Sequence record: OZ209023.1
From: Escherichia phage T4
Strand: one strand, 5' to 3'
DNA length: 64,000 nucleotides
Notes under the pieces: generated by a model
The model's database searches: none
What the model was told of the DNA's origin: nothing
Seen by the model: only the letters and a program-made list of their open reading frames with translations
Part shown: one piece after another, positions 2,459 to 59,267 of the stretch
Position numbering within the stretch: the stretch's first letter is position 1
How the letters are laid out: each line of letters opens with the position of its first letter
Program-made: the position numbers and the translations under genes

Positions 2459-2990
2459 TACTGGCTCATCCATTCTTTACGAAGGTCAGCATTATCTCCC
2501 ATGAGCATTTCAAAAAGCTCTTTCCAGTTCTCAGGAAGTTTAACAACATCATATACTGGGTTTTGAATCATCTCACGATATTCAGATTTTTCCAAAGAGC
2601 CAAGTCCCTTAATATAACGGATGCTATGTTTAGGTAGAGCATCTTTGGCACTCTCATATTCAGCGACTGTATAAAACCATTCTTGTTTTTTACCGACCTG
2701 AGCGATGATTACAGGAGTTTTGACAAAGCGAATTCGTCCTTGCTCAAACAATTCTGGCCAATTACTAAAAAATCCGAGCAGAGAAGGATAAATAGAACCT
2801 AATCCAATAATCTCTTAATTATGAGGTATTTCTATAGATAGCCCGAAGGCTATCCATCGTGATCTGCGTCTGTCATAATAGCGACATTCGCATAGTTCAT
2901 TGAAGAGGATTTAATAGAACGACGAACATTGTTCTGCAATTTATATTTTTTCATATCAACGCTAGAAGAATCAATTTTTACAAATTTCAT
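2458..2990 (-). CDS. 60: DNA topoisomerase II small subunit gp60, decoded by ribosomal bypassing: complement(join(2458..2802,2853..2990)), 160 aa
   Basis: N-terminal ORF MKFVKIDSSS...MTDADHDG ends at GGA-TAG (2855-2850); coding resumes after landing GGA (2805-2803) with LGSIYP...FEQGRIRF; 46+114 codons. Confidence 0.9.
2803..2852 (-). other. 50-nt translational bypass (coding gap) element of gene 60
   Basis: take-off GGA followed by TAG inside a hairpin with UUCG loop (plus 2838-2853 atagcc-cgaa-ggctat), landing GGA 47 nt downstream. Confidence 0.85.
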
Positions 2991-3789
2991 TATACACCTC
3001 ATAGAACTTTTCATCAGGAATCCAACCGCGTTTAAATTCATTAAATGCTCGGCCGAATAATTTTGAATTCACAGTTATATTATTAACTGATTTCCATTTA
3101 GCAACTCCCGTTCGTTTATAATGATCGGGGTCATATTTCGTGACGTACCATTCATATAAATTTGGTATTAATTTTACAGCCTCTGGATTTGTCGCTGATT
3201 TATTATACCATGGTTTCGCTTTTTCAAGTTCAGCTGCTTTTGCAGTAGCAGCAACAGTATTTCCAATACCAACTAATTTTTCAGTTTTAATGCGTGGATC
3301 ATTAACATGAAGACGAAAAACTTCGCCCTTTTCATTTTTAAAGCATGTCATGCCTTTAATTCCAGGAAGCTTAACACCTTTATTAACACCGCACCATTCC
3401 TTTGGGTTAAATGATCCTTTAATTAATAAGGCGCATTTACCCGATTTAATACTTCTCATTAAAACTTTATCTTTCATAAAGTTTTTTGACCATTCAGATA
3501 CTGCTCTTTGATGGTAAATTCTAGCAATTTCATATAATTTACTAGAACGTAAATATTTTTCAGTGTTTAACATTCTATTCATCGCATATGCCATTTCACG
3601 ATTACGATGAATTTTATATAGTAGAAAATGTGCTAAAAAGTGTTCACGAAAAGTCAGTTTCACCAAATTTTCTTTATCATCAGAACCTCCCATTGATCTT
3701 GGAAGGATATGATGAATTTCACCCTTAAATTTAGAAACGCGGGTTTTACCCCGCACTATTAAGTCATTATAGATTTTTTCGTAATTCAC
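2971..3789 (-). CDS. mobA: freestanding HNH homing endonuclease MobA
   Basis: 272-aa ORF between genes 39 and 60; HHILPRSMGGSDDKENLV...REHF HNH motif; N-terminus MNYEKIY shared with other Mob ORFs. Confidence 0.8.
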   Translation of the reverse strand: MNYEKIYNDLIVRGKTRVSKFKGEIHHILPRSMGGSDDKENLVKLTFREHFLAHFLLYKIHRNREMAYAMNRMLNTEKYLRSSKLYEIARIYHQRAVSEWSKNFMKDKVLMRSIKSGKCALLIKGSFNPKEWCGVNKGVKLPGIKGMTCFKNEKGEVFRLHVNDPRIKTEKLVGIGNTVAATAKAAELEKAKPWYNKSATNPEAVKLIPNLYEWYVTKYDPDHYKRTGVAKWKSVNNITVNSKLFGRAFNEFKRGWIPDEKFYEVYNEICKN

Positions 3790-24385: not shown

Positions 24386-25441
24386 TTATAAATCAATAGC
24401 TTTTTTGAACGCATCTTGCCATTCGGCTTTCTTTGCACGGGTTTTATTTAAAATATCATGTTAAATAGAAAGCATCTCTTTACGCAAAACATCACTGTGT
24501 TTTAACTCATTGACTCTATCAATGAGTTCAGCACGATTATTTACATAAAAACGAGCATCATTAATAATTCGATGTTTGGTATCAAATTCTTCGTCAATTA
24601 GCATCACTGCATCAGATGCCATTGTTTCCCAGACGCGTAAGGTAATAAAGTTGTCATTATAATTCTTGTCACCAATAATTAATGCAGCAATAGCTTGACT
24701 ATTCTTTTCAGATACCATGTTCATAGGAATTTTTCCAGTGAACACCGGAGCTTTGGTCCAAGGATATTTAGGATTTTTAAACTGTTTTTCTCGTGCATTG
24801 CCAAAAAACTCAATATTTAAACCGGTGTCAAATAAGAATTCTACCATCTTGGATTCGCGTTGACCGGACCGAAATGAACCGCCATAAATAACATCCAAAG
24901 TTTTCTTGGTAGGCTTAGATAATTGAAAATCGTTCATATGAATTTTATATTGTTCAATAGGAAAATATTCAAATTCAATAACATTATCAACTTTCTTATG
25001 CGCAGCCTTAGCAATGTCTAAATTTATACCTTGGGAAATCACTTTAATTGGTGATTTAATTAATAGCTCTTCTTCAGTGTACAAATATGCCCATGGTCTA
25101 TTTTTAACATTTGGCCAAGACTGCGAAAACGGCAAACGTATATCTGTAAATAAATAATAAATTTTACTTTTGTATTTTGCCATAAATTTTTGCGCAGATA
25201 AAATTGCTAAATTAGGTTTACCGCCAAAAAAGTTAATAGAAGAATTAACAACTATCAAACGGTCATAATCATTAACATCTACTTCATCAAAAGATTTAGT
25301 GTAAACACCATTTTTAAGAGAAATAATGTCGACATTAAGACCCATTTCAGAAATAACTTTAAAAAGATAAATAGTTTCAGAAGATGGAACAGTTTTAAAA
25401 TTAATAACATTATTACCCATATTAATTATAGCAATTTTCAT
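24386..25441 (-). pseudogene. bgt: DNA beta-glucosyltransferase gene interrupted by in-frame ochre codon at 24461-24463 (product 326 aa instead of 351)
   Basis: ORF MKIAIINMGNNVINFKTVPSSETIYL... stops at TAA; the next 24 codons continue in frame (HDILNKTRAKKAEWQDAFKKAIDL) to a second stop at 24386, restoring a 351-codon gene. Confidence 0.7.
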
Positions 25442-35418: not shown

Positions 35419-36434
35419 TGTGTTGCCTCTACATATAGCTGATTTGCATATTGAATAAGTGCTTCACGGTCAGAATCAGTGATGTCTGGAATTGCATTAA
35501 TATACTCTTCCATTAATGTCTGAAGCGATTGAACTTCAACTTCTTCACTGTCATCTGACTCGACAGAGTTATCAATCTTTGACACAACTCGTAATGAATG
35601 CACAACTTTTTCTAGTTCAGATTCGAACTTCGTCAGATTTTTGTCTACTTCAGTTACTATAACACGTACTGATAGATTTGTAAAATCTTTATAGTCAATT
35701 TTTCCTTTAAATGGATAATGAATTCTACGATGCCAGGTAGTATTGTTTGGAATAAATTCCGTTCGTTCTGTTTCTGTATCAAACATCCAGAACCCACGAG
35801 GGTCATTCTCGTCACCTGCGGTTAGTGTCCATGGTGTCCCAATATATCTGACGTTTGCAGCCTCAGAAATAGTATGGAAGTGACCAGACCACACTTCTTT
35901 ATAAGTCTTAAGGAAATCGGGTTCAAGACCATGAGATTTCATTCCTTTATAAAAATAAAATCCATTCAGTTCCCAGTGACCAACACAAAAAGAAGCAGAT
36001 GAAGTTTTGATATGCTCAAGAATTTCACCAGTATTTTCTTCGCACATCCAAGGAATCAAATCAATCAAACACCCGTCAAAATCTACTGTAGTAGGCTTAT
36101 CATACACTTTAACATTAGGATATTTAGCCAAAAGCTCAGTAGAAGCATTTGGATGCATTACATTTTTATAGTGGAGATCGTGATTTCCTACAATAGTGTG
36201 TAATGTAATTCCAGCATCATCAAGCGTTTGAACTATTTCACGGGCAAACTCCATAGTTTTATGTGTGATCGCTTTTCGCACATCAAAAATATCACCGTAT
36301 TGAATCCAGGTAGTAATTCCATTTTTCTTAGAATATTCTATCGCTTGCTTAATTCCATCAATTTGAATACCGCGAATCCACTCATCATCAGCTTTAACGC
36401 CTAAATGCCAATCACCTAAATTTAAAATTTTCAT
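35415..36434 (-). CDS. 47: recombination nuclease subunit gp47 (Mre11/SbcD-like phosphoesterase)
   Basis: 339-aa ORF; calcineurin-like motifs (LGDWH, GNHD, GHWE). Confidence 0.9.
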   Translation of the reverse strand: MKILNLGDWHLGVKADDEWIRGIQIDGIKQAIEYSKKNGITTWIQYGDIFDVRKAITHKTMEFAREIVQTLDDAGITLHTIVGNHDLHYKNVMHPNASTELLAKYPNVKVYDKPTTVDFDGCLIDLIPWMCEENTGEILEHIKTSSASFCVGHWELNGFYFYKGMKSHGLEPDFLKTYKEVWSGHFHTISEAANVRYIGTPWTLTAGDENDPRGFWMFDTETERTEFIPNNTTWHRRIHYPFKGKIDYKDFTNLSVRVIVTEVDKNLTKFESELEKVVHSLRVVSKIDNSVESDDSEEVEVQSLQTLMEEYINAIPDITDSDREALIQYANQLYVEATQ

Positions 36435-36571
36435 ATATCAAGAACCGTCATTGAAATGCAAAATAAAATTATTGAAATAAATCCATCTGGAGTGCTAAAG
36501 AACCCAATCCAACATGCTCTAGTGAATAGATAAAATGCAAGAAAAAGTATCACATATCCAAGAAATATCAT
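36431..36571 (-). CDS. small hydrophobic protein translationally coupled to gene 47
   Basis: 46-aa ORF MIFLGYVILFLAFYLF...; GGAG SD; its TGA stop overlaps the gene 47 ATG (ATGA). Confidence 0.45.
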   Translation of the reverse strand: MIFLGYVILFLAFYLFTRACWIGFFSTPDGFISIILFCISMTVLDI

Positions 36572-36594
36572 TATATCAAACTCCGTATAAAGCT

Positions 36595-36612
36595 AAAGGG
36601 CCGAAGCCCTTT
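36595..36612 (-). terminator. UUCG-loop hairpin overlapping stop of the alpha-gt remnant
   Basis: plus aaagggc-cgaa-gcccttt. Confidence 0.4.
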
Positions 36613-36748
36613 ATTTTGTAATAATGTCAAACTGTTCTTTAAAGCAGAAGCTTGAATCTTGATGCTGATACAAAAATTCATATGCTTTTTCTCGCTCACG
36701 GTCATAAAGAGCTCGGTCAGCTCGAGCCATAAAAATGCAAATACGCAT
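36611..36748 (-). pseudogene. agt: remnant of DNA alpha-glucosyltransferase gene: 45-codon in-frame fusion of extreme N- and C-terminal codons
   Basis: ORF MRICIFMAR-A-DRALYDREREKAYEFLYQHQDSSFCFKEQFDIITK with SD; T4 alpha-GT is about 400 aa and lies between 47 and 55; about 1.07 kb of coding sequence is absent. Confidence 0.65.
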
Positions 36749-36806
36749 AGTTTTCCTCTTTTCATTTAATAAATCATGTAAATAATATTTTATTTTCTAT
36801 AAAACG

Positions 36807-37601
36807 CTACGAATAGGCCCAAACATATCCATAAGCAATTTTGCTTTTTCCAGATATGCACTTTTTAATATTAGACATGCATCCTTTAACGGATACAGCT
36901 GCGTCTTTAATTCTAGGAAATACTCGTAATAATTTTCCAGTAGTATCATATTGAAATACTGGCACATTTCTTTTCTGAGTTATCCCACGTTTAGATTTAG
37001 ACATTTTTTGTTTAGTTGCATTAGACATCCTAGAGGGCTTTCCTATGTTATCAGAATAATAATATTTCCATTGAAATCCTCCAGCGGTTTTCCTTTTACC
37101 ATCTACACATTGTTTAATTGAAGTTGAACAGCTATATGACATATCTTCTGCAGCATCTGTAATACATCTATATTTGCGAATAAAATTTCCATTTAAATCA
37201 TATTGATAAATTGGTTTTCCAGCATTTCGTCTAGCGTTAGACATGTATTTTTTATTATCATCATCTTTCCAGAACTCTTTCATGCTTTCCGATATTGAAG
37301 AAGATACAGCTGTTTTAATCCATCCATACATTTTATTATTTAGTCTTGTTCCGTCAGAACTATAACACATCATACGAATAGCTAAAGCCAATTTAGGAAG
37401 TCTATAAATTTTAAATAATAATAAATGCGCGGTAAAATGTTCTTCTGGTGTCAAAAGAACTAAATTAGTTTTATCATCTGTACCACCCATACATCTAGGA
37501 ATTATATGATGTGTTTCAGTATAGTATGTCAAAAGACTTTTATCATTGTCTCTGTTTAGTCCTTTTTCGATCAGTAAATTATATATGTTTAAATAATTCA
37601 T
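36807..37601 (-). CDS. mobB: freestanding HNH homing endonuclease (MobB-like)
   Basis: 264-aa ORF; N-terminus MNYLNIY, HHIIPRCMGGTDDKTNLVLLTPEEHF HNH motif. Confidence 0.6.
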   Translation of the reverse strand: MNYLNIYNLLIEKGLNRDNDKSLLTYYTETHHIIPRCMGGTDDKTNLVLLTPEEHFTAHLLLFKIYRLPKLALAIRMMCYSSDGTRLNNKMYGWIKTAVSSSISESMKEFWKDDDNKKYMSNARRNAGKPIYQYDLNGNFIRKYRCITDAAEDMSYSCSTSIKQCVDGKRKTAGGFQWKYYYSDNIGKPSRMSNATKQKMSKSKRGITQKRNVPVFQYDTTGKLLRVFPRIKDAAVSVKGCMSNIKKCISGKSKIAYGYVWAYS

Positions 37602-37652
37602 TTTAGTTTATTTTACCAAAAAATTTATAAAGCAATATAAGAGCCGAAGCTC

Positions 37653-37844
37653 CTATCCACATAATACGCCATACAGAGGCTCGTTAGAACTTTTAAATTT
37701 TATGCGCTTATATGTTATAGTTCCTTCTGCTTTAGCTTTATCATGAGCCTCTTTAAAGCGTCTCATCATTTCCTCTCTAGAGGAACGAATTTTATTATAA
37801 TCTATTTCAGAAGTCGGATGTTCATCTTTCACAGTTGCCACCAT
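37653..37844 (-). CDS. hypothetical small protein
   Basis: 63-aa ORF. Confidence 0.4.
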   Translation of the reverse strand: MVATVKDEHPTSEIDYNKIRSSREEMMRRFKEAHDKAKAEGTITYKRIKFKSSNEPLYGVLCG

Positions 37845-58685: not shown

Positions 58686-59267
58686 CTAACCGAGCTTTTT
58701 AGTTAATTCATTCCAATGTTTTCTACACAAAGAAACATAAATTTCATCACCAATACAAATTTGATTACCTTCTTTAACTGGTGTTCCATCTTCCATTAAT
58801 CGAGCTGTCATAATCGCTTTTTTACCACAATGACAAACTGCTTTTAGTTCAATAAGTTTATCTGCAATCGCTAAAAGTTCTTTAGAACCTTCAAATAATT
58901 TTCCAGCGAAATCAGTCCTTAGCCCATAAGCCATAACAGGAACATTATATGTATCAACAATTCGGCTCAATTGATGCACCTGTTCAGTTTTTAAAAACTG
59001 AGCTTCATCTACAAATACGCAATGAATATCTTTTTGTGCTTCAGCCCATTTATAGAACTCGAAAATATCCATATCATCTGTAATAATATTCGCTTCCTGC
59101 TTAATTCCAATGCGAGAAACGACTTCACAGACAGAATCGCGAGTATCAATAGCAGGCTTAAGAACTAATACACTCATTCCACGTTCTTTATAATTATGTG
59201 CAGCAGTCAAAAGAGAAGCAGATTTTCCAGCATTCATTGCTGCATAAGTAAAAATTAAACTCGCCAT
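58686..59267 (-). CDS. tk: thymidine kinase
   Basis: 193-aa ORF; Walker A AAMNAGKS; zinc ribbon CHCGKK...C; recognised sequence. Confidence 0.9.
   Translation of the reverse strand: MASLIFTYAAMNAGKSASLLTAAHNYKERGMSVLVLKPAIDTRDSVCEVVSRIGIKQEANIITDDMDIFEFYKWAEAQKDIHCVFVDEAQFLKTEQVHQLSRIVDTYNVPVMAYGLRTDFAGKLFEGSKELLAIADKLIELKAVCHCGKKAIMTARLMEDGTPVKEGNQICIGDEIYVSLCRKHWNELTKKLG

What the first reader, a model, noticed from the sequence alone, without database searches (positions are those of the whole stretch)
36435..36806. Alpha-glucosyltransferase gene reduced to a 45-codon in-frame remnant
Between gene 47 and the MobB-like HNH gene, where T4 carries the roughly 400-aa alpha-glucosyltransferase, only a 138-nt ORF remains (complement 36611..36748). 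It encodes MRICIFMAR-A-DRALYDREREKAYEFLYQHQDSSFCFKEQFDIITK, which I recognise as the extreme N- and C-terminal codons of alpha-GT fused in frame, so roughly 1.07 kb (about 355 codons) is absent. The SD and downstream UUCG hairpin are intact, so this looks like a clean internal deletion rather than decay. With the beta-gt nonsense codon, it predicts a phage with non-glucosylated hydroxymethylcytosine DNA, a genotype with major consequences for host restriction (McrBC/GmrSD sensitivity) and typical of engineered or selected T4 gt-minus strains.
Basis: partly seen in the sequence, partly recalled or inferred. Interest (0 to 1): 0.8.

Follow-up and report, generated by a model that had tools for sequence, protein, structure and literature searches.

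The report
Engineered alpha-glucosyltransferase deletion in phage T4
The 45-codon stub is the scar of a deliberate, published laboratory deletion of phage T4's alpha-glucosyltransferase gene (strain T4Δα-gt, ENA OZ209023), so it is real but already known, and the strain's DNA is reported to remain sugar-coated through the second enzyme.

Summary
Window 36611..36748(-) is a 45-codon in-frame remnant of T4 a-gt. Exactly 1,065 bp (355 codons; NC_000866.4 36734-37798) are missing, with no inserted bases and no microhomology.

It is neither decay nor a classical gt-minus strain. It is the designed deletion of T4Δα-gt (Bhoobalan-Chitty, Stouf & De Paepe 2024), made with short homology arms and Cas13b counter-selection.
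- Their breseq table reads "36,721, Δ1,065 bp, coding 29-1093/1203".
- Their repair oligos span the window's junction.
- The exact remnant protein is CAM1376833.1, on one 167,856-bp contig.

The b-gt stop (Q327→TAA, window 24463) is also real, but it is probably not a second engineered hit. The same allele occurs in at least 23 public assemblies of the same T4 lineage, and runs from the same series carry an intact a-gt. The authors' comparison with their own wild type did not list it.

The predicted phenotype (non-glucosylated DNA) conflicts with published LC-MS/MS: T4Δα-gt has 99% β-glucosylated 5-hmC and is fully virulent on an RM+ host. Whether the 326-aa β-GT is active or the stocks differ remains unresolved.

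Verdict: already known, low interest.

The parts
36611..36748 (-). 45-codon in-frame remnant of a-gt (a-GT residues 1-9, hybrid Ala, residues 366-400); identical to CAM1376833.1
   Evidence: no Pfam family matches it
36720..36721 (.). Deletion junction: 1,065 bp (NC_000866.4 36734-37798; a-gt coding nt 29-1093 of 1203) absent between these two bases; no filler, no microhomology
   Evidence: matches the authors' breseq line '36,721, delta 1,065 bp, coding (29-1093/1203 nt)'
36635..36803 (.). Stretch corresponding to the published repair template pBAD24-HA(alpha-gt): left arm 36635-36720, right arm 36721-36803
   Evidence: the two published oligos map to 36635-36730 and 36710-36803 and overlap across the junction
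36755..36758 (-). Native a-gt Shine-Dalgarno (GAGG), retained
   Evidence: identical to the reference
36594..36613 (-). Native hairpin (8-bp stem, UUCG loop) overlapping the a-gt stop codon, retained
36431..36571 (-). Gene 47.1 (46-aa predicted membrane protein), intact, downstream of the remnant
36807..37601 (-). mobB HNH/NUMOD1 homing endonuclease, intact, upstream of the remnant; carries the lineage-specific G18D change
24386..25441 (-). b-gt with CAA->TAA at codon 327 (window 24461-24463), giving a 326-aa product identical to CAM1376818.1 of OZ209023
24464..24493 (-). Protospacer of the authors' type VI-B (BzCas13b) beta-gt spacer AATAGAAAGCATCTCTTTACGCAAAACATC; the TAA stop directly abuts its mRNA 3' end

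Best explanation
The window is the first 64 kb of the engineered phage T4-delta-alpha-gt of Bhoobalan-Chitty, Stouf & De Paepe (Front Genome Ed 2024; ENA OZ209023). Wild-type T4 was grown on E. coli DH10B carrying a plasmid with two roughly 85-bp arms (the 5' and 3' ends of a-gt) fused together. Rare recombinants that copied the fusion lost a-gt coding nt 29-1093. They were then enriched on a strain expressing BzCas13b with a spacer against a-gt mRNA, which blocks phages that still make the target transcript. The scar is in frame and keeps the native SD, start codon, stop codon and hairpin, so a 45-aa peptide with no glycosyltransferase domain can still be made. That design would be expected to limit effects on the neighbouring genes mobB, 47.1, 47 and 46 (this last point is inferred, not tested). 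Loss of alpha-GT leaves all hydroxymethylcytosine to beta-GT; the authors measured 99% beta-glucosylation. The b-gt Q327 stop in the same genome is most likely an older polymorphism of the parental T4 stock, which implies (not shown) that the 326-aa beta-GT still works in vivo.
For: Deletion position, size and coding interval equal the authors' breseq output. The published repair oligos map contiguously across the junction. Both a-gt Cas13 protospacers lie in or across the deleted interval. The window is identical over all 64 kb to the sibling strain OZ209057.1 (T4-delta-beta-gt), apart from the two engineered deletions and one SNP (window 58004) that the authors list for the sibling as H42P at 59,069. 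The exact remnant protein is CAM1376833.1, on one contig of 167,856 bp (= 168,921 - 1,065), and the exact 326-aa beta-GT is CAM1376818.1, which the 2026 NAR supplement assigns to OZ209023.1. For the b-gt stop being ancestral: the allele is on at least 23 assemblies, whereas the remnant is on one. Those contigs are 100% identical to the window and include the lineage SNPs. Runs of the same SRA series have an intact a-gt next to the lineage-specific MobB G18D. No 351-aa beta-GT was seen beside the lineage-specific Spackle variant. breseq against the lab's own wild-type assembly did not list the stop.
Against: OZ209023 itself is not in the searchable phage collection, so identity rests on exact protein matches, the paper and the sibling genome. 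The second listed mutation (gp37 T939I at 159,371) lies outside the window. On the b-gt side issue: the C-terminal 25 residues are retained in homologues down to about 31-50% identity, which argues against a dispensable tail. The authors also purified beta-GT through a C-terminal His tag using native primers, which requires a template without the stop. Co-occurrence of the stop and an intact a-gt was shown within the same run series, not within the same run.
Confidence: 0.97

Rival explanations
1. Classical glucosylation-negative T4 (strain 147 / T4gt, a-gt57 b-gt14), carrying old mutagenesis-derived lesions in both transferase genes.
For: Both genes carry lesions in the window. Seven of seven lineage SNPs between 24.4 and 37.6 kb are G:C->A:T transitions, a pattern also expected from chemical mutagenesis.
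Against: KJ477685.1 (strain 147) lacks a-gt and mobB together, with a different junction, and its b-gt has a Ser->Phe missense and no stop. The window's junction equals a 2024 synthetic oligo.
Confidence: 0.01
2. Spontaneous deletion: a CRISPR-escape or replication-slippage event between short repeats, or natural decay of a-gt in a wild T4-like phage.
For: The authors report that Cas13b escapers often carry deletions across the protospacer, formed at microhomologies (Suppl. Fig. 10).
Against: There is no microhomology at the junction. The junction is written into the repair oligos. The deletion is exactly in frame. The flanks are 100% identical to a lab lineage. None of 50,697 phage genomes shares the junction.
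Confidence: 0.01
3. The genome really is glucosylation-null: the b-gt stop inactivates beta-GT, and the sequenced or deposited clone differs from the stock that was phenotyped.
For: The stop removes 25 C-terminal residues that are conserved in length and alignable in distant homologues. No suppressor tRNA is present in the isogenic sibling. Stocks are propagated in DH10B, which lacks McrA, McrBC and Mrr, so loss of beta-GT would be unselected there. The C-terminally His-tagged beta-GT was purifiable, so a CAA allele existed in the lab.
Against: Published T4-delta-alpha-gt has 99% beta-glucosylated 5-hmC and wild-type virulence on RM+ MG1655. breseq against the lab wild type did not flag the site. 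The same allele is widespread in the lineage alongside an intact a-gt.
Confidence: 0.2
4. The b-gt stop is a Cas13b escape mutation, selected when this phage was exposed to the lab's beta-gt spacer, because it directly abuts that protospacer.
For: Window 24463 is the first base 3' of the protospacer at 24464-24493. A random SNP in 64 kb would land in or next to a 30-nt site about 5 times in 10,000.
Against: The same allele is present in a sister lineage that carries a-gt S237F, which the INRAE strains lack, so it predates the engineering. The change keeps the NAA flank the authors required, so it should not abolish targeting. The adjacency is explained if the spacer was designed on their own sequence against an NAA motif that happens to be the stop codon. 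The reported escapers have changes inside the protospacer or deletions.
Confidence: 0.04

Closest known systems
T4-delta-alpha-gt (Bhoobalan-Chitty, Stouf & De Paepe 2024, Front Genome Ed 6:1495968; ENA OZ209023)
   Same: Identical deletion position, size, coding interval and junction; identical remnant and beta-GT proteins; identical parental lineage.
   Different: Nothing detectable within the window. The record's other listed change (gp37 T939I) lies outside it. The paper does not mention the b-gt stop that the deposited genome carries.
T4 strain 147 / T4gt (a-gt57 b-gt14; KJ477685.1)
   Same: A T4 derivative that lacks alpha-GT through a deletion at the same locus.
   Different: Its deletion removes a-gt and mobB together, running from just after the a-gt stop to upstream of mobB. 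Its b-gt carries Ser->Phe and not Q327stop. It lacks the window's lineage SNPs.
[quoted passage not shown] 2026, NAR gkag531)
   Different: Its b-gt is deleted. The window keeps a full-length b-gt gene with only a stop at codon 327.
Brig1 escaper mutants of T4 (Hossain et al. 2024; Ramirez-Chamorro et al. 2026, Table S4)
   Same: Loss of alpha-GT function in T4.
   Different: Those escapers carry point mutations or single-base indels with no size change. A public run of the sister lineage shows such an allele, a-gt Q175amber.

Membership tests
Engineered strain T4-delta-alpha-gt (OZ209023) | Deletion of 1,065 bp at position 36,721, a-gt coding nt 29-1093 of 1203 | tested here: met
   against the breseq table
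Engineered strain T4-delta-alpha-gt (OZ209023) | Junction sequence equals the fused homology arms of pBAD24-HA(alpha-gt) | tested here: met
   the oligos map to 36635-36730 and 36710-36803; the few gaps are PDF text-extraction errors
Engineered strain T4-delta-alpha-gt (OZ209023) | Proteins identical to those annotated in the deposited record | tested here: met
   45-aa remnant = CAM1376833.1 on a 167,856-bp contig; 326-aa beta-GT = CAM1376818.1, assigned to OZ209023.1
Engineered strain T4-delta-alpha-gt (OZ209023) | Isogenic with the lab's T4 lineage (sibling OZ209057.1) | tested here: met
   100% identity over 64 kb apart from the two engineered deletions and the sibling's own H42P SNP
Engineered strain T4-delta-alpha-gt (OZ209023) | gp37 T939I (C->T at 159,371) | not testable with these tools
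   the position lies outside the 64-kb window, and the record is not in the collection
Functional DNA alpha-glucosyltransferase (Pfam PF11440, AGT) | Presence of the AGT domain (residues 14-368 of T4 alpha-GT) | tested here: not met
   the remnant matches no Pfam family; wild-type alpha-GT scores 862 bits; residues 10-365 are deleted
Classical gt-minus strain T4 147 (a-gt57 b-gt14) | a-gt/mobB deletion and b-gt Ser->Phe as in KJ477685.1 | tested here: not met
Microhomology-mediated CRISPR-escape deletion | Short direct repeat shared by the two deletion end points | tested here: not met
   no shared bases at the junction
Glucosylation-null (hmC-only) T4 genotype | alpha-GT inactive | tested here: met
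Glucosylation-null (hmC-only) T4 genotype | beta-GT inactive | tested here: inconclusive
   stop at codon 327; the tail is conserved; no suppressor tRNA in the sibling; but the published strain is 99% beta-glucosylated and the allele is widespread in an a-gt+ lineage

The most novel reading that the evidence does not exclude
A widely used laboratory lineage of 'wild-type' T4, seen in four SRA run series and in both INRAE mutants, carries an unreported ochre codon at b-gt position 327. The resulting 326-aa beta-GT lacks a C-terminal segment conserved across homologues, yet it would still glucosylate essentially all hydroxymethylcytosine in vivo. If so, that segment is dispensable for activity, and many published T4 experiments were done with a truncated enzyme.
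Probability: 0.5. Interest if true: 0.3.

Novelty: already known. Interest (0 to 1): 0.1.

Why it matters
The a-gt stub itself adds nothing new: it is a designed, published and deposited deletion. So either the truncated beta-GT is active or the deposited sequence and the phenotyped stock differ, and users of OZ209023 or of the strain should know this. Second, the b-gt stop and a set of non-synonymous changes in replication genes mark a T4 stock lineage that recurs in public data under the label 'wild type'.

Tried and rejected
1. Classical strain 147 as the source: rejected by direct comparison.
2. A restriction-site-based deletion, because CTCGAG and GAGCTC flank the junction: both sites are native T4 sequence and the break is not at a cut position.
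3. Phage-encoded ochre suppression of the b-gt stop: all eight tRNAs of the isogenic sibling have wild-type anticodons.
4. The b-gt stop as a Cas13b escape: attractive at first because it abuts the lab's protospacer, but the allele is shared with a sister lineage in public runs.
5. Fetching OZ209023.1 directly: it is not in the collection.
6. Identifying the SRA series through the literature library: no relevant paper cites those run numbers.
7. A fuzzy-regex mapping of the oligos timed out and was replaced by blastn-short.
8. Testing whether the lineage ever shows a 351-aa beta-GT: none was seen, but near-identical places are collapsed in the output, so this is weak evidence.

Full report
**What is in the sequence.** The window is phage T4 from the rIIA end and is collinear with NC_000866.4 positions 1 to about 65,085. 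At 36611..36748 on the minus strand there is a 138-nt ORF encoding MRICIFMARADRALYDREREKAYEFLYQHQDSSFCFKEQFDIITK. Walking the alignment in from both sides places a single break between window 36720 and 36721. Reference bases 36734-37798 (1,065 bp, 355 codons) are missing. Nothing is inserted, and the two ends share no bases. The product is alpha-GT residues 1-9, one hybrid alanine codon (G|CT), then residues 366-400 of the 400-aa enzyme. The Shine-Dalgarno sequence, start codon, stop codon and the UUCG hairpin that overlaps the stop are all native and intact. The CTCGAG and GAGCTC sites near the junction are native T4 sequence, not linkers. The Pfam AGT domain covers residues 14-368 of the wild-type protein, and the remnant matches no family.

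**Where it comes from.** No record among 50,697 phage genomes spans a 120-nt junction probe. The best match to the flanks, at 100.0%, is OZ209057.1, whose locus tags read "T4mut_betagt". Over all 64 kb the window differs from that record at only three places: the a-gt deletion (window), an 838-bp b-gt deletion (OZ209057.1) and one SNP at window 58004.

The source paper is Bhoobalan-Chitty, Stouf & De Paepe, Front Genome Ed 2024 (PMC11693715). [quoted passage not shown]
- Its Supplementary Figure 5 lists for T4-delta-alpha-gt "36,721, delta 1,065 bp, coding (29-1093/1203 nt), agt".
- For the sibling it lists "24,429, delta 838 bp" and "59,069 T->G H42P". The latter equals window 58004 + 1,065.
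- The two published repair-template oligos map to window 36635-36730 and 36710-36803, so they overlap across the junction.
- Both a-gt Cas13 protospacers fall inside or across the deleted interval.
- An exact-sequence look-up finds the 45-aa remnant as CAM1376833.1 on a single 167,856-bp contig (168,921 minus 1,065). It finds the window's 326-aa beta-GT as CAM1376818.1, which the authors' 2026 supplement assigns to OZ209023.1.

OZ209023 itself is not in the searchable collection, which explains the empty junction search.

**How it was made and what it does.** According to the paper, T4 was grown on DH10B carrying a plasmid with arms of roughly 80 bp from the two ends of a-gt, fused together. 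Recombinants were then selected on a strain expressing BzCas13b and an a-gt spacer. The in-frame scar keeps the translation signals, so a 45-aa peptide without any transferase domain can be made. I infer, without having tested it, that the design also limits polar effects on mobB upstream and on 47.1, 47 and 46 downstream.

**Rivals.** The classical gt-minus strain 147 (KJ477685.1) is excluded. Its deletion removes a-gt and mobB together, and its b-gt has a Ser->Phe change and no stop. A spontaneous microhomology deletion is excluded by the absence of any repeat at the junction and by the match to the synthetic oligos.

**The b-gt stop codon.** The window's b-gt has CAA->TAA at codon 327 (window 24463). 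The authors' breseq table does not list it, yet their own later table gives the OZ209023 beta-GT as 326 aa. The mutated base directly abuts the protospacer of one of the lab's beta-gt Cas13b spacers (window 24464-24493), which at first suggested an escape mutation. Public assemblies argue otherwise.
- The exact 326-aa protein is on at least 23 contigs, whereas the a-gt remnant is on one.
- Those contigs come from runs SRR27475xxx and SRR24798xxx. They are 100% identical to the window over up to 12.5 kb, including the lineage SNPs.
- In the same run series, the window's lineage-specific MobB (G18D) sits next to an intact 400-aa alpha-GT.
- That sister lineage differs by a-gt S237F, which the INRAE sibling lacks. 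One run adds a-gt Q175amber.
- No 351-aa beta-GT was seen beside the lineage-specific Spackle variant.

The stop therefore most likely predates the engineering. That would explain why a comparison with the lab's own wild-type assembly did not report it. The adjacency to the spacer also follows if the spacer was designed on their own sequence against the "NAA" flank they required, which here is the stop codon.

**Phenotype.** The 2026 paper from the same group (PMC13216743) reports that T4-delta-alpha-gt has 99% of its 5-hmC beta-glucosylated and is as virulent as wild type on MG1655. Only the separate double deletion is hmC-only and restricted by McrBC and McrA. If the phenotyped stock carries the stop, the 326-aa enzyme must be active.

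Some evidence points the other way. Homologues down to about 31-50% identity align through residues 345-351. The lab also purified beta-GT by a C-terminal His tag using native primers, which needs a template without the stop. A phage-encoded ochre suppressor is excluded in the isogenic sibling, because all eight tRNAs have wild-type anticodons. The question can be settled by mapping the deposited reads at position 24,463 and by testing a sequence-verified clone.

**Verdict.** The finding is real and was read accurately, but it is an already published engineered deletion. The accompanying phenotype prediction is probably wrong. The only open point is the status of the b-gt stop, which is a matter of strain quality control with modest structure-function interest.

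Noticed in passing
window 24461-24463 (b-gt codon 327) and 24464-24493: The b-gt ochre codon is present in the deposited T4-delta-alpha-gt genome but absent from the authors' mutation table. It directly abuts their Cas13b beta-gt protospacer, and the same 326-aa allele occurs on at least 23 public assemblies of the same lineage.
   Followed up: yes
window 24463, 26800, 28819, 29726, 31800, 37549, 37640: All seven differences from an independent modern T4 (MT984581) in the 24.4-37.6 kb stretch are G:C->A:T transitions. Besides the b-gt stop they give imm.1 D67N, gp43 G354D and G52S, gp44 S18F, MobB G18D and one intergenic change. The six outside b-gt are shared with OZ209057.1, so they mark the parental stock. 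The polymerase and clamp-loader changes were not evaluated.
   Followed up: partly
L019-L027 (Logan assemblies of SRR27475xxx, SRR24798xxx, SRR32808571, SRR34076306): A sister lineage carrying the same MobB G18D has a-gt S237F, which the INRAE strains lack. SRR27475715 additionally has a-gt Q175amber, as expected for a phage selected for loss of alpha-GT. The origin of these run series could not be identified.
   Followed up: partly
window 27031 (start of L010, L011, L012, L013, L016): Contigs from several independent runs of two SRA series all end at exactly the same base, between imm.1 and gene 43. The cause (mixed population, coverage gap or repeat) was not examined.
   Followed up: no
window 58004: T here versus G in OZ209057.1. 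This matches the authors' H42P (T->G at 59,069) listed for T4-delta-beta-gt, so the window carries the ancestral base.
   Followed up: yes
window 3450-3670 and 63722: Eleven single-base deletions relative to NC_000866.4 in the 60.1/mobA region merge these genes into one long homing-endonuclease ORF (annotated 2971-3789 in OZ209057.1 and 2971-3756 in MT984581). A 9-bp deletion relative to the old reference also lies in vs.8. The mobA difference is probably an error or variant in the old reference sequence.
   Followed up: partly
window 24386-25441 and flanks: The beta-gt homology-arm oligos printed in Supplementary Table 2 of the 2024 paper match nothing in the window, although b-gt and its flanks are in it. 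The pCas13b-Spc(beta-gt) spacer in Table 2 (maps to 24863-24892) also differs from the VI-B beta-gt spacer in Table 1 (24464-24493).
   Followed up: no
protein cluster of the remnant (P0017): Short contigs labelled Enterococcus faecalis encode fragments of T4-like alpha-GT and beta-GT, for example a 48-aa MESTLERIKDLSSDRALY... protein. This suggests T4-like phage DNA contaminating those assemblies.
   Followed up: no
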